DNA of 62,915 nucleotides, filler included, from Basidiobolus ranarum (taxonomy: Eukaryota), in the NCBI GenBank assembly GCA_040143965.1. It is 27 parts of 27 records of this genome, joined end to end, with 100 filler letters (N's around TTAATTAATTAA, not from the genome) between each part and the next. Parts side by side here need not be neighbours in the genome. Positions count along the whole stretch, not along the records: positions 37,418 to 39,649 come from JASJQH010010482.1; 26 more parts are not named here. The stretch is one strand, 5' to 3'. The translations under genes and the position numbers were made by a program. Below are positions 2,168-39,749 of the stretch, one piece after another. The notes under the pieces were generated by a model. The model was not told the origin of the DNA and did no database searches. It saw only the letters and a list, made by a program, of their open reading frames with translations. Numbering within the stretch: position 1 is the first letter of the stretch; every line of letters starts with the position of its first letter.

Positions 2168-2240
2168 GCCCGGCTAGCTCAATCGGTAGAGCGTAAGACT
2201 CTTAATCTTAAGGTTGTGGGTTCGACCCCCACGTTGGGTG
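2168..2240 (+). tRNA. tRNA-Lys(CTT)
   Basis: GCCCGGCTAGCTCAATCGGTAGAGCG-TAAGA-CTCTTAA-TCTTA...GGTTCGACCCCCACGTTGGGTG. Confidence 0.95.
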
Positions 2241-2244
2241 ACTC

Positions 2245-30320: not shown

Positions 30321-30526
30321 NNNNNNNNNNNNNNNNNNNNNNNNNNNNNNNNNNNNNNNNNNNNTTAATTAATTAANNNNNNNNNNNNNNNNNNNNNNNN
30401 NNNNNNNNNNNNNNNNNNNNACAAAACTATAAATGTCAACTTTCTACTCAATAAATCAATAAGTGAAAACCACCAATTCCTCTAATTCTCCAAACCACTT
30501 CCAACAGGCTCCCAAATACTTTAACA

Positions 30527-31402
30527 CTATCATGCTGGAAATTGATATATGATGATTCTCTTGTTTCTGAGTTAGCTTTACAGCTGCATGAAACAAAACA
30601 GCCTAAAATTGTTGTTATAGAATTCAAGCTAGACCTTTGGAAGGTACATCTTGACTGTAAGACACCATTCTTGATTCCCATTATTCCAGGTTTTTGTCCT
30701 ATTGCCCATCTGTTTTGTGCTGAGTACCTTCCTTTCTGCTTACGACCTTTGCCCTTAACACTATATTTACATCCTCAGAACTGGGTCACATTGGTCATCA
30801 AGTTAAGTATAGATATGATCCAGTATTGTCACAATATCTTAAAAGATTGTTGTCTTGATTGTCACTTTGTTTAGATTTGTATTTAAGCTAAATAAAGTCT
30901 ACACCATCTGGTGCTTTTCATCCCCCCTAAATTTCTAGAAACCTATTAGAAATTATACTTGACAAGGGTGTTGCTGATATTTTCATAGAAGAAGTCAAGG
31001 AACATATTGAATGGGATCTCTTTGATCATACTTTCAGACAGCATATTGACAGCCCTCTTTTTGCACCTTTCTCTTTGGAAATGGAACTCTTAGCAAGATT
31101 TACCAGTTTACTAAAAAACTCTCCCTCTCCTCAAGTCACAAATTTTCCAAGAAATTACTACAGTGAGCAAGCAGTTGAACTTCATTCTCCACTAGACTTT
31201 GACATTCAACATCTATGGGAAATTGCAAACTCTAGGGTTTTCAACTAACCCTAACCCTTCCATACTTCATTGTTTTCTTTATATTTTAACTTAAACTTTT
31301 ATTGTTAGCACATTATGCTACATTGGCTTATTTGTTTAATAGTTGTTTATCCATTTATTAAATAAATATTACACCCTGTGGTGTTTATCATCCCCCTAAC
31401 CC
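30527..31402 (+). mobile_element. Two head-to-tail element 3' ends finishing in telomere-like CCCTAA(CCC)
   Basis: Open frames end at 30874 and 31248; each is followed by AATAAA, CACC-N4-GGTG and CATCCCCCTAA; unit 1 recurs at 37596-37784 and 39120-39380. Confidence 0.65.
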
Positions 31403-36342: not shown

Positions 36343-37161
36343 GTTTTGAAGACTAACCCATTGCTGCAATAGGGGATTGACAACGATTAATGTTCTTCAT
36401 TATGTTTTAGCATAAATGAATCTCATTTTCTCACATCTCATTTTCTCACTAGCAACTGAAACAAAGTTATGATCTGATGAAAAATTTGCCTAGTAAAAGC
36501 TCTCATTGGCTACAACAGCTTGGGTGTATAAAGCTTACATATATTGGATGAAATGCTATCTTTAATAACAGTGTTAGTAATGAAGGTTGAATTGGTGGCA
36601 ATGATTACAGAATAGGCAATTGCACATAGGATAATATGAAGAAATATGTAATTAGCACTTTTTTATAGTTGTGTTAGAGGTGAAGAGAAATATCAATTTC
36701 CTTGTTACATTGTTACTTACTCTTGAGCACGTTGATGATACAAAGGAGAATGATATCAGCAATGACCCTCAGAAAATACTTCTCTTGCCAGGTTTAATGA
36801 GCCAAGATATCTCAACCATGTAAGGTATGAATGATCATTCTAGAGTGCAGAGGTATTTTGCATTTCTACTTGATTATTCCGCATCTAGGATCAAGGCACA
36901 TCTGGGATTGGGTTTATGCTAAGAATATAATTGCAAGTAAAAATTCACTATTTATGCTTCACTACCTCCACACACAAAGAGTAGAATATTGTTAATACAT
37001 ATCTCCGCTAATAGAACCTGTAGGCCCATAATAATAATAAGCTCAGTGTTAATGCTTAAGTGATATGTAATAATATACAGAGTCAAGTCCTTCACAACGA
37101 CTTAGAATATATATCATTCACTTTGTTACTGGCGTGTTCATCTACTGGTGATTGGTATTAA

Positions 37162-37317
37162 CCCTAACAAAAATAAAATCGATTTGATCCAGATCGGATC
37201 CACCCTCCAAAATAGCAAAACCGTCAGAGAACCGTCACAATATCATTGGCTTGCATTCTGCCAGGGATTTTGATGGTGTGACGGTGGTTTCTTGACGGTA
37301 TCTTGGCGGTATTCATA
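37162..37317 (-). mobile_element. CMC-EnSpm end B (CpG-retaining copy)
   Basis: Starts CCCTAACAAAAATAAAATC; also at 40196, 40889, 43016, 43938, 50349, 54480. Confidence 0.8.
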
Positions 37318-37417: not shown

Positions 37418-37441
37418 CCCTAACCCTAACCCTAACCCTAA
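37418..37441 (+). repeat. Telomeric repeat (CCCTAA)4 at contig start
   Basis: Four perfect units begin at the contig edge, C-rich strand 5'. Confidence 0.75.
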
Positions 37442-37506
37442 GACTGTGTCCCCCAGCCCCCCTCTTTTGATACTTACCCTCACGTACCCTTACAAGAAAA
37501 TCAAAA

Positions 37507-37784
37507 CCCTAAGTGTTTATCATCCCCCCTAACCCTTTTGTTTAAATTGATAAATAAATATCACACCCTCTGGTGTTTAGCATCTCCCTAACCCCACCTT
37601 TGCCCGTTAACACTATATTTACATTCTCAGAACTTGAATACATTAGTCATCAGGTTAAGTATGGATATGATCCAGTATTGTCACAATATCTTAAAAGATT
37701 AATGTCTTGAATGTGACTTTGTCCAGATTAGGATTTTAGCTAAATAAAGTCCACACCATATGGTGCTTTTCATCCCACCAACCC
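37507..37784 (+). mobile_element. Array of three 5'-truncated telomere-associated element ends
   Basis: Units end at 37535, ~37594 and 37784 in CATCCCCCTAACCC-like motifs shared with 30930, 31402, 39380. Confidence 0.7.
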
Positions 37785-38545
37785 TTTTGCATTGTTTGAG
37801 CACAATAACAGCAACAAAACCCAATTCATGGACTCAGCATAAGTACCTCTATAATTTGGACTAATTGGTTTTTGCGATAATCTGATGGTATTTCTAGGAA
37901 ATCTGCAAGACAGACTTGTTTGTGAGATAGAACAAGATATACAGTATTATTGTTTTAGCCATGGGGTAATCTATTCAAGCAATGATACATCTACTTGTGG
38001 CATGACATTTGTTGACTGCAAATTGGAGTCATTTTGGCTGAATCCTTTACAGAAATTTGCCAAAATCCAAGAGCATATTCTCATTGTGAATGGTAACAAG
38101 AGTGAGCTATTTGTGAAGTATCAGTGCCATTCAACATTTCAGATGTTCAACAGTTTTTCCACCATTAGTTTGTTGGTAAAGCATATTGATGTTGTTGAGT
38201 TATGTCTGATCAGTCAAGTATATGCATATGTAGAGACTAAACACAACAGGATTCTTCAATTTTTTGATTCTCATTATGGCTGAAATACAAAGCCTAAAGT
38301 ATCTAAATGATGGCATGCATATTAATTCAAATTCCTACAGCAGTAAACCCTTTAATTTGCCATTTGAAAATTATATTTTGTGAAAATTGCCAAAAATTAA
38401 ATATTACATGCCAAATATGAAGATCAATATTTTAACATGTATGAATACCATCAAGATACCATCAAGAAGCCACCATCACACCATCAAAATCCCTGGCAGA
38501 ATGCAAGCCACCAATATTGTGACAGTTCTCTATGGTATTACAATA
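37785..38545 (+). mobile_element. CMC-EnSpm distal ORF region near end B
   Basis: ORF 37885-38283 is paralogous to 41174-41614, 50801-51073 and 53754-54194. Confidence 0.75.
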
Positions 38546-38549
38546 AGGC

Positions 38550-39119
38550 ACTTTGTTCTTTTTTGATCTGGAGTAAAACTTTGGTTCTGGATAGTTTTAC
38601 ATTGATTTCTTTTCCTGCAACAGTGTCCCAAAGTCCTTTTTCTTGCAGCAGCATTTTCATTTTGGTTTTGCAAACTTGAAAATTGGTTGCATCCAATTTT
38701 TCAGAGGAGGGTAAAGTTTAATAAATTTGAGAAGGAGCAATAACAGAGAGTGCAAGCTTGGGGTTCATAACCTGTTAAAGTATTTGGGAGCCTGTTGGAA
38801 GTGGTTTGGAGAATCAGAGAAATTGGTGGTTTCACTTGTTGATTTATTGAGGAGAAAGTTGCCAATTATAGTTTTGTCAAGATCTAAATAAACTAATATG
38901 TAGAATGCTTGAAGAAAGGTCCCAGGAACATGTGTGCAAAGTTAGGGGCTTCTAGCACAAGTTTAAAAAATCTTTTCATATGAGAACTTCTAAGTTTATA
39001 AAAATATTCAAAGTAAATTCCAATTGAGAATAATAGATAAATTCTTAGTGGAATATATAACAACTAAGTACTAAGCTAAATATGACTATATAGGTGTATA
39101 GGCAATGCTAATTTCAACA
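38550..39119 (-). mobile_element. Copia family A 5' LTR (38773-39119), PBS GGTTATGAACCC and gag start
   Basis: Minus strand LTR end CA is followed by GGTTATGAACCC, then EKLDATNFQVCKTKMKMLLQEKGLWDTV. Confidence 0.85.
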
Positions 39120-39749
39120 ATTGAATCCTGATTATTTTGGGTTTTTGTCCTATTGCCCATTTGGTTTGTACTGAGTATCTTCCTTTCTGCTTACCACCTG
39201 TGCCCCTTAACACTATATTTACAGCCACAGAACTGCATTACATTGGACATCAAGTTAAGCATGGATATGATCCAGTTTTGTCTCAATATCTTACAGGACT
39301 GATATCTTGATTGTCACTTTGTTTAAATCAGTATATAAGCTAAATAAAGTCCACACCACCTGGTGCTTTCCATCCCCCCAGTGTTAGGGGATATACCAAG
39401 ATTTGCTTTGAATATCAGGGTAGATGGATACTGGCAAACTTTTGATTATCGATCAATACAACATCTAGTAAGCAAAGATAAGGTTTGAACTAACTCTAAC
39501 CCTTAGTGAGTAAAAAGGAAGAATATTGCATGTGACAAAGATATTGTATTGATTAGCTATAAGAGTGGCTCACAATAATTCTACATATCTAGCCCATTTA
39601 GCTAACTTGTTTAGCTAGCTCATCTCATAGCTTTTGCATGTAACTAACANNNNNNNNNNNNNNNNNNNNNNNNNNNNNNNNNNNNNNNNNNNNTTAATTA
39701 ATTAANNNNNNNNNNNNNNNNNNNNNNNNNNNNNNNNNNNNNNNNNNNN

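What the first reader, a model, noticed from the sequence alone, without database searches (positions are those of the whole stretch)
37418..37784. Telomere-capped array of 5'-truncated elements ending in CCCTAACCC: candidate telomere-extending retroelement
Seen: (CCCTAA)4 at the contig start, then three same-orientation units of ~25, ~60 and ~190 bp. They share only the right end: AATAAA, CACC-N4-GGTG palindrome, CATCCCCCTAACCC (the shortest unit keeps only the last part). The last unit joins the middle of a broken CMC-EnSpm copy. Known: endonuclease-less Penelope-like elements (Athena, Coprina) carry reverse-complement telomere repeats at their 3' end, prime on the G-rich overhang and leave head-to-tail 5'-truncated chains capped by telomere repeats in this polarity. 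Inference: repeated retro-addition or end-healing by an uncharacterised telomeric element. No RT for it is visible in this window.
Basis: partly seen in the sequence, partly recalled or inferred. Interest (0 to 1): 0.8.

Follow-up and report, generated by a model that had tools for sequence, protein, structure and literature searches.

The report
Telomere-tailed LINE chain capping chromosome end
A short stack of cut-off jumping-gene ends in a gut fungus belongs to a lineage of LINE retrotransposons that end in telomere repeats and seem to attach themselves to broken DNA ends, here probably at a real chromosome tip, which would be a fungal parallel to the fruit-fly telomere elements working beside telomerase.

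Summary
The array is real and has four units, not three. It is not Penelope-like. Unit 3 is the 3' end of an APE-endonuclease plus RT LINE (family A). Units 1-2 carry the 3' end shared with ORF1-only partner elements; a fourth, non-coding unit (F) follows the cap. All end in 0-2 extra CCCTAA repeats instead of poly(A). The host is Basidiobolus ranarum by one 100% protein match; TERT is present. In the genome, 30 of 95 sampled 3' ends run directly into another same-strand family copy, none antisense. Tails join targets with 1-5 nt microhomology (39 of 55; control 31%). No TSD was found in 23 chains. Three of seven contig-terminal telomere arrays cap a truncated family copy in this polarity; four do not, and most copies are uncapped. 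Best reading: the LINE RT primes on free DNA ends, jumps between templates, and telomerase sometimes caps the chain. No reads were available, so the chromosome-end position is likely (about 75%), not shown. The scan noted this family before on other DNA (e1-7323045); the capped cases, polarity, junction statistics and ORF1-only partners were tested here.

The parts
37418..37441 (+). (CCCTAA)4 at the first base of the contig; probable telomere cap (about 75%), otherwise the long tail of an unassembled upstream copy
37442..37512 (+).
   Evidence: 86% to F copy on C6504, E 1e-18; alignment A2 with four F copies
37513..37535 (+). Unit 1: last 23 nt of a D-type end (D1 or D2; D1 is an ORF1-only element), with tail
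   Evidence: 100% over 16-17 nt to D1 and D2 ends; too short to assign further
37536..37594 (+). Unit 2: last 59 nt of family D2 (AATAAA, CACC-N4-GGTG hairpin, tail); no ORF seen in the 336 nt of D2 recovered
   Evidence: 93% over 58 nt to D2 on C2189
37595..37784 (+). Unit 3: last 190 nt of LINE family A: end of ORF2 (stop 37708-37710), AATAAA 37743-37748, hairpin 37754-37765, decayed tail
   Evidence: 90% over 182 nt to the RT-bearing copy on C10372
37785..38539 (+). Interior fragment of a CCCTAAC-ended DNA transposon (CMC-EnSpm-like, lead only); upstream part absent, and it stops about 66 nt short of its terminus
38540..39119 (-). Copia-type fragment in reverse, with its LTR at 38772-39119; the outer LTR end abuts the next LINE copy (LTR and PBS assigned from a recalled copia motif and neighbouring pol fragments)
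39121..39380 (+). Second 5'-cut family A copy, same polarity as the array
   Evidence: 86% to C10372 copy
30525..31402 (+). Independent chain on another contig of the window: Copia LTR end, family A (30525-30926), then ORF1-only family D1 (30928-31402)

Best explanation
The array is a chain of reverse-transcribed 3' ends from a lineage of APE-type non-LTR retrotransposons of Basidiobolus. Shown: two autonomous families (A, B: ORF1 then APE+RT ORF2), two ORF1-only families (D1, D3) and two families with no ORF found (D2, F) end in short CCCTAA tails; A, B and D also share an AATAAA + CACC-N4-GGTG hairpin. Inferred mechanism: ORF2p primes on a free DNA 3' end (a break, often inside another transposon or a gene) by pairing 0-5 nt of the RNA's CCCUAA tail with it. 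It copies a short stretch, and the new end is extended again by another family RNA, by a template jump or a later event. The last end is capped by telomerase, joined to another element's terminus, or left unassembled. At this locus the order would be A onto the broken DNA transposon, then D2, D, F, then telomere repeats. ORF1-only and non-coding partners use ORF2p in trans through the shared 3' module.
For: Family A tiles from APE to 3' end over six contigs (overlaps 90%/52 nt, 79%/71, 99%/154, 98%/415, 95%/794). Family B ORF2 on C10302 has RVT_1 E 1e-26 and Exo_endo_phos_2 E 4e-5, the latter under the curated cut-off; the N, D, Y, GDxN, D and SDH motifs are kept in alignment A1. Candidate counts fall 425, 55, 18, 3 from the 3' end inward. 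Tails: 130 ends, 0-13 nt of perfect telomere phase after the first TAA; 1 of 189 hairpin ends has an A8 run. Chains: 30 of 95 ends directly followed by a sense family copy, 0 antisense; 109 of 109 adjacent family-end pairs share polarity. Microhomology at tails: at least 1 nt in 39 of 55 (control 935 of 2970), at least 2 nt in 24 of 55 (control 377 of 2970), p about 1e-8. No TSD of 8 nt or more in 23 two-flank chains, none convincing in 22 hand-picked, partly the same, cases, and no clean empty site among 70 two-flank chains. Tail-into-transposon junctions lack the upstream half: 44 'tail, interior, terminus' against 2 reciprocal pairs. A 5S rRNA fragment (32 bits, E 0.002, under the gathering score) lies in sense between an F tail and an A body on C6504. 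Telomere arrays cap truncated copies on C10482, C13172 (12 units) and C9095 (about 100 nt, degenerate). ORF1-only: D1 on C2740 is a 269-aa ORF followed by UTR, hairpin and tail, homologous to ORF1 of another LINE of this genome (E 2e-8).
Against: No reads could be laid, so no junction or cap is confirmed outside a fragmented assembly. Four of seven terminal arrays have no family sequence on their contigs; without this finding the count is 2 of 6 (p 0.006-0.03 for an assumed background of 2-5%). Element tails can reach four perfect units (1 of 11 tails with three or more units, C3947), so the cap could be a tail. The APE domain looks intact, which an end-priming element would not need. 125 of 237 5' sides end at a locus or contig edge and cannot be judged. 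My control 550 nt downstream also hit family sequence in 15 of 89 cases, all sense, so adjacency is partly clustering. The sample was drawn mainly by 3'-end searches. Transposon-terminus-to-LINE junctions show no microhomology (18 of 25 with none, like the control), so they are not explained by the same pairing step.
Confidence: 0.52

Rival explanations
1. Telomerase first: a break is seeded with one to three TTAGGG units by telomerase, and the LINE then primes on, or inserts into, that new telomere. The tails are telomere remnants, as described for MoTeR relics, and each copy marks a present or former chromosome end.
For: TERT with T, A and B' motif exons is present. In Magnaporthe 19 of 24 de novo telomeres used 1-4 nt seeds, and relics are 3' termini with a short telomere stretch (PMC7367193 passages); this matches the microhomology here. 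G follows TAA in 38 of 62 element tails and also at all three capped junctions and at the 18-unit array on C7746, which hints at one enzyme. The species is reported to have 60 to many hundreds of small chromosomes (PMC3281927 passage).
Against: Tails are very short (48 of 130 stop at the first TAA, longest perfect extension 13 nt), against 3-8 repeats for FoTeRs (PMC12857005 section 19); insertion along a grown telomere should leave longer tracts. Tail-to-LINE junctions inside chains would each need a telomerase step.
Confidence: 0.2
2. Ordinary dispersed LINEs with a microsatellite-like tail. Chains come from template switching during one internal insertion and from nested insertion in repeat-rich regions; the (CCCTAA)4 is the tail of an upstream copy at which the assembly broke.
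For: At least 144 strict 3' ends and 425 candidates for family A; APE motifs kept; 11 of 28 arrays with three or more units are element tails; LINE template switching is known in a fungus (PMC2104539 abstract).
Against: All 11 tail arrays were assembled with at least 100 nt of sequence upstream, while this array starts at base 1. No TSDs or empty sites, whereas the Magnaporthe tripartite chimera has a 14-bp TSD. Reciprocal halves are missing: 44 against 2, and 15 of 19 against 2 of 25 in RT-selected loci (p 3e-6).
Confidence: 0.19
3. Assembly or amplification chimeras stitched repeat fragments together.
For: 13,754 contigs for 65 Mb against a published haploid estimate of 350 Mb, so repeats are collapsed; unit 0 and the F unit on C9095 carry extra mismatches at contig edges; reads unavailable.
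Against: Junctions fall at non-homologous positions, always use the natural 3' end of the element, and keep one polarity in 109 of 109 pairs; units differ 7-15% from other copies, so they are not recopied neighbours.
Confidence: 0.07
4. Endonuclease-less Penelope-like element (Athena or Coprina type).
For: Same polarity and reverse-complement telomere repeats at the 3' end as described for EN-minus PLEs (PMC8557442 passage).
Against: Unit 3 tiles into an APE+RT non-LTR ORF2; L1 ORF2p is the best PDB match and no TERT chain is among the 8 hits; no hammerhead in Rfam scans of 47 loci.
Confidence: 0.02

Closest known systems
Drosophila HeT-A / TART / TAHRE
   Same: APE-type non-LTR elements plus an ORF1(gag)-only partner; head-to-tail arrays with the 3' end toward the centromere; thought to add onto ends without nicking despite a conserved APE, and found at broken ends (PMC5537684 and PMC4700185, passages).
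   Different: Here telomerase is present, the tail is CCCTAA not poly(A), units are 20-1500 nt, most copies are not at capped ends, and no relationship to the jockey clade was shown.
MoTeR1/2 (Magnaporthe) and FoTeRs (Fusarium)
   Same: Fungal non-LTR elements with 5' end toward the tip, 3' end on TAACCC repeats, truncated copies capped by new telomeres, internal relics with short telomere stubs, no TSD identified (PMC7367193 passages; PMC12857005 sections 18-19).
   Different: Those are restriction-like-endonuclease elements of the CRE/SLACS group, intact only inside telomeres, with 3-8 repeat tracts; these have an N-terminal APE, 0-2 extra repeats and join non-telomeric DNA.
TRAS / SART (R1 clade, Bombyx, Tribolium)
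   Same: APE-type LINEs tied to telomere repeats in a telomerase-bearing genome (PMC5537684 passage; PMC7265360 abstract).
   Different: SART needs at least three target repeats and a poly(A) tail and inserts within telomere tracts; here targets are non-telomeric and there is no poly(A).
EN-minus Penelope-like elements (Athena, Coprina)
   Same: Attach to ends through reverse-complement telomere repeats in the RNA (PMC8557442 passage).
   Different: TERT-related RT, no endonuclease, hammerhead motifs; none of these holds here.
HAL1 (half-L1) elements
   Same: ORF1-only derivatives of a LINE that keep a 3' end for mobilisation in trans (recalled; search listing only).
   Different: HAL1 partners are poly(A)-tailed L1s (recalled); L1-clade membership was not tested here.
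Magnaporthe MGL / WEIRD / Mg-SINE chimeras and endonuclease-independent L1 insertion
   Same: Fusion of several transcripts by template jumps during LINE reverse transcription (PMC2104539 abstract); L1 priming at breaks and telomeres (titles in a reference list only).
   Different: Those chimeras are rare (33 bipartite, 1 tripartite with a TSD); here 76 of 203 sampled chains with an intact end have two to five units and no TSD was found.
Grem-LINE1 (Mucor)
   Same: APE+RT LINE of an early-diverging fungus (10.1101/706580 passages).
   Different: Centromeric, zinc fingers in ORF1, zf-RVT domain and poly(A) signal; no such domains were found in families A and B.

Membership tests
APE-type non-LTR retrotransposon (LINE) | ORF2 with N-terminal APE then RT | tested here: met
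   RVT_1 over cut-off; Exo_endo_phos_2 E 4e-5 (B), 8e-5 (A), at cut-off in P0005; motifs kept, with D at the usual metal-binding E (motif positions recalled)
APE-type non-LTR retrotransposon (LINE) | ORF1 upstream of ORF2 | tested here: met
   ORF end directly before ORF2 on C13735 and C10302; only the last 77 aa of A's ORF1 seen
APE-type non-LTR retrotransposon (LINE) | fixed 3' end, variable 5' truncation | tested here: met
   candidates 425/55/18/3
APE-type non-LTR retrotransposon (LINE) | target-site duplication (usual, not universal) | tested here: not met
   0 of 23 with 8 nt or more; many 5' flanks are other transposons' termini, which weakens the test
APE-type non-LTR retrotransposon (LINE) | membership of a named clade (L1, Tad, Inkcap, Deceiver, RTE...) | tested here: inconclusive
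   quick tree of 69 RT rows: A, B and P0001-5 form one long branch (SH-aLRT 100); no curated clade references were available
EN-minus Penelope-like (Athena/Coprina) | no endonuclease domain | tested here: not met
EN-minus Penelope-like (Athena/Coprina) | TERT-related RT | tested here: not met
   PDB best hits L1 ORF2p, then group II intron RT and R2; non-LTR motifs in A1
EN-minus Penelope-like (Athena/Coprina) | hammerhead ribozyme near the telomere repeats | tested here: not met
   no hammerhead family in Rfam scans of 47 loci; loose core pattern absent from 3' ends
EN-minus Penelope-like (Athena/Coprina) | reverse-complement telomere repeats at the 3' end | tested here: met
MoTeR / FoTeR (CRE/SLACS group) | C-terminal restriction-like endonuclease | tested here: not met
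   ORF2 ends about 230 aa after the RT core with no zinc-finger or nuclease family hit
MoTeR / FoTeR (CRE/SLACS group) | 5' end toward the chromosome tip, truncated copies capped by telomere | tested here: met
   3 of 3 capped contigs
MoTeR / FoTeR (CRE/SLACS group) | intact copies only inside telomeres | not testable with these tools
   no full-length copy is assembled; no long reads
TRAS / SART (R1 clade) | insertion inside multi-repeat telomere tracts; poly(A) tail | tested here: not met
   tails join non-telomeric DNA after 0-13 nt; 1 of 189 with A8
HeT-A / TART / TAHRE | ORF1-only partner sharing arrays with autonomous elements | tested here: met
   34 alignment rows reach the D1/D3 ORF end; 28 match the hairpin pattern within 230 nt, the other 6 show the same UTR with a changed or cut hairpin, none runs into ORF2; D units sit in chains with A and B
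HeT-A / TART / TAHRE | telomerase lost; elements confined to telomeres | tested here: not met
   TERT on C493; 4 of 7 terminal arrays lack the family
CMC-EnSpm (the interrupted element) | Transposase_21-type DDE transposase, CMC termini, short TSD | tested here: inconclusive
   Atlas 0.97, PF02992 on 11% of members, RAG1-type clusters close behind; termini begin CCC; TSD not tested

The most novel reading that the evidence does not exclude
Basidiobolus runs a HeT-A/TART-like end-healing consortium beside an intact telomerase: autonomous APE LINEs, ORF1-only partners and non-coding riders have all replaced poly(A) with telomere-complementary tails, add serially to broken chromosome ends, pick up free transposon termini on the way, and hand over to telomerase. 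Most of the hundreds of copies would then mark present or former ends of this fungus's many small chromosomes, and the system would help make them.
Probability: 0.25. Interest if true: 0.85.

Novelty: new variant of a known kind. Interest (0 to 1): 0.6.

Why it matters
Fungal telomere-associated retroelements in the papers read here are restriction-like-endonuclease elements (MoTeR, FoTeR, Cnl1) or EN-minus Penelope-like elements. An APE lineage with telomere tails and gag-only partners would be an independent arrival at the Drosophila design, in a genome that kept telomerase. That makes the hand-over between retrotransposon and telomerase testable in one organism. It could also bear on why B. 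ranarum has so many small chromosomes. A second, distant LINE lineage in the same genome (families E and G) also ends in telomere-like tails, which suggests selection for this tail rather than one accident.

Tried and rejected
Reads were not available for this window, so junctions and the cap rest on the assembly. A scan of metagenome contigs with alignment A1 gave only distant LINEs (best segments 23-35%), so the DNA ends of the five close relatives P0001-P0005 were not seen and their tails are unknown. The profile search of 1.84 billion representatives showed few close members (scores 1419, 1260, 782, 566, 412, 338, then under 290; the first two are in the query) and no names. An intact allele of the chain-truncated PEX5 was looked for: one 95% match over 129 nt at a contig end and a 69% paralogue, inconclusive. 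Helitron 3' end, LTR end with PPT, and piggyBac were considered from the motif and dropped once the ORF2 end was found and no TTAA flank was seen at the CCC termini. Telomerase-RNA-derived copies were dropped because the units are coding LINE ends. Folding supports the hairpin for A (z -2.8) and B (z -3.5) but not clearly for D1, D2 (z about -1.7) or D3 (z 0.3); covariation was not tested. The careful tree did not finish; only the quick tree is reported, with 4 rows dropped for lack of the RT core. Nine paper searches returned no description of telomere-tailed APE LINEs in Basidiobolus or other early-diverging fungi; the library lacks most subscription papers and Repbase, so this is weak evidence of novelty. 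No supplements were read.

Full report
Setting. The window is a string of 27 unrelated contigs of about 2.2 kb separated by artificial spacers. The finding is the first 367 bases of G000:C10482; the assembly has 65 Mb in 13,754 contigs. A PEX5 fragment on C3947 is 100% identical to a protein that NCBI labels Basidiobolus ranarum, with the next hits at about 52%, so I take the host to be that species. A paper on it gives a haploid estimate of 350 Mb and cites 60 to many hundreds of small chromosomes (PMC3281927, passages). TERT is present on C493 with exons for the usual motifs.

Observation. Confirmed with corrections. (CCCTAA)4 occupies 37418-37441. It is followed by four same-strand units: 37442-37512, 37513-37535, 37536-37594 and 37595-37784. 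A strict pattern for the shared end has 144 matches in the genome, 65 forward and 79 reverse, and 0 for the control.

What the units are. Unit 3 matches 425 candidates. Copies share a fixed right end and extend left into an open frame. Walking left gave 55, 18 and 3 candidates, the gradient expected of 5' truncation. Six contigs tile family A from the end of ORF1 through an APE domain and the RT to the 3' end; the weakest overlap is 79% over 71 nt. A sister family B has a 746-aa unbroken ORF2 piece on C10302 with RVT_1 at E 1e-26 and an APE hit at E 4e-5, under Pfam's cut-off; it tiles to the B-type end through C6891. Five unnamed database proteins are 51-90% identical and the next are near 30%. 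In alignment A1 the APE motifs are kept. Human L1 ORF2p is the best solved relative. In a quick tree of 69 RT sequences the seven form one long branch next to other LINEs of this genome; no named clade could be assigned. Units 1 and 2 carry D-type ends. D1 and D3 encode an ORF1-like protein followed directly by a UTR, the hairpin and the tail: 34 alignment rows reach the ORF end, 28 match the hairpin pattern, the other 6 show the same UTR, and none continues into ORF2. The whole D1 ORF on C2740 is 269 aa and matches ORF1 of another LINE of the genome (25% over 204 aa, E 2e-8) and weakly the end of A's ORF1 (E 0.001); Atlas neighbours are unnamed proteins mostly of Mucoromycota. No ORF was found in the recovered parts of D2 or F. 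Unit 0 is family F.

Tails. Of 130 ends, 48 stop at the first TAA, 56 add 1-5 nt and 26 add 6-13 nt in telomere phase. One of 189 hairpin ends has an A8 run. When a tail stops at TAA the next base is G in 38 of 62 cases (about 21% expected). Where the target is a repeat with a readable empty site, tail and target share at least 1 nt in 39 of 55 and at least 2 nt in 24 of 55, against 31% and 13% for mismatched pairs.

Chains and polarity. I examined 95 ends in 90 loci taken from the 100 listed of the 144 matches. Thirty are followed within 25 nt by another family member on the same strand and none on the other strand; several come from the same locus, and a control 550 nt downstream gave 15 of 89, also all sense. 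Over all loci, 109 of 109 adjacent family-end pairs share polarity, and 76 of 203 chains with an intact end have two to five units (approximate binning). No TSD of 8 nt or more was found in 23 two-flank chains (5 of 506 in the control). Among 70 two-flank chains no clean empty site appeared; one had a 21-nt gap and six others had single scattered gaps. Tails often join the interior of a copia LTR or of the DNA transposon, and the upstream half is missing: 44 such pairs against 2 reciprocal ones, though 5' sides are visible only about half as often. A short 5S rRNA piece sits in sense between F and A on C6504, the one sign of a jump onto a cellular RNA in 47 loci scanned.

Unexplained. The 5' side of family copies often abuts the exact terminus of a copia LTR or of the DNA transposon. 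In 30 loci chosen by the RT region, this held for 15 of 19 visible 5' sides and 2 of 25 visible 3' sides. These junctions have no excess microhomology. Later insertion at random would be symmetric. Two readings fit: insertion near a chromosome end with loss of everything distal, or blunt capture of linear transposon DNA at the new free end. I cannot tell them apart.

Is the cap a telomere? Twenty-eight arrays of three or more units were examined (27, one more): 7 at contig ends, 11 tails of family copies, 10 unrelated and internal. Tails have three perfect units in 10 cases and four in one, and all were assembled with 100 nt or more upstream. Three of the 7 terminal arrays directly cap a truncated family copy in this polarity: this one (F), C13172 (12 units, A) and C9095 (about 100 nt of partly degenerate repeats, F). 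The other four contigs hold no family sequence. Leaving out this finding, 2 of 6 has p 0.006-0.03 for an assumed background of 2-5%. I put the chance that this cap is a true chromosome end at about 75%.

Mechanism. Shown: element class, shared 3' module, tails, polarity, microhomology, absence of detected TSDs, three caps. Inferred: ORF2p primes on free ends with the RNA's CCCUAA tail, adds units serially, and telomerase caps some chains (0.52). The main rival has telomerase lay a short seed first (0.20); it gives nearly the same products and is favoured by the shared TAA|G rule, disfavoured by the very short tails. An ordinary dispersed LINE with an unassembled tail gets 0.19, artefact 0.07, a Penelope-like element 0.02.

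Comparison. It works like HeT-A/TART (APE elements plus a gag-only partner, head-to-tail at ends; PMC5537684 and PMC4700185, passages) and leaves products like MoTeR truncations and relics (PMC7367193, abstract and passages; PMC12857005, abstract and sections 18-19). It is a member of neither. It fails three defining tests for EN-minus Penelope-like elements (PMC8557442, passages) and the target and tail tests for SART (PMC7265360, abstract). Template jumps by a fungal LINE are in print (PMC2104539, abstract). HAL1 is recalled, seen only in a search listing. PMC2246262 was seen as an outline only and 10.1101/706580 as passages.

Novelty and score. It is a LINE, so the kind is known; the combination of APE, telomere tail, ORF1-only partners and polarised chains in a telomerase-bearing fungus was not found in nine searches of the held library. 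The scan noted the same family on other DNA and judged end-healing not shown (e1-7323045); my data raise that reading but do not prove it. New variant of a known kind, interest 0.6.

Noticed in passing
L125/L133/L193/L250 (family E) and L152/L279 (family G): A second LINE lineage of this genome, about 25% identical to A/B in ORF2, also ends in AATAAA plus telomere-like CCTAA(A)CCC tails (four E sites, two G sites) and occurs in chains with A, B and F. Two other LINE families (L124, L127) do not.
   Followed up: partly
L131 = G000:C3947:833-2000: A PEX5 gene lacks its 5' part and is joined to a 78-nt internal piece of family A ORF2 and then a B tail of about five units; an intact allele could not be shown.
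   Followed up: partly
L095:112-170 (G000:C6504), minus strand: Short 5S rRNA fragment in sense between an F tail and an A body.
   Followed up: partly
many loci, e.g. L208, L217, L156, L080; window 39119/39121 and 30525: Copia LTR ends and DNA-transposon ends sit exactly at the 5' cut of LINE copies far more often than at 3' cuts, without microhomology.
   Followed up: partly
window 37160-37166 and other copies: The DNA transposon's termini begin CCCTAAC, so its 3' ends read TTAGGG like a telomere end.
   Followed up: no
L245 minus strand 1-210 (G000:C2740 end): The ORF1-only D1 element starts with 102-nt tandem repeats that hold telomere-like motifs; possibly a promoter array.
   Followed up: no
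junctions at window 37441/37442 and 37512/37513; genome-wide: G follows TAA at 38 of 62 tails and at four of the seven terminal arrays; a G next to the template of either the LINE RNA or the telomerase RNA could explain it.
   Followed up: partly
alignment A1, columns 28-36: The APE domain has D where L1-type enzymes have the metal-binding E (position recalled) in all four sequences covering it.
   Followed up: no
L076:2231-2303 minus strand: A tRNA match lies 26 nt upstream of a truncated family B copy, same strand.
   Followed up: no
L382:610-685 (G000:C9095): A further, diverged AATAAA + CACC-N4-GGTG + CCCC end not in my family set.
   Followed up: no
window 2205-2244: The first contig ends in what looks by eye like the 3' half of a tRNA gene.
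   Followed up: no
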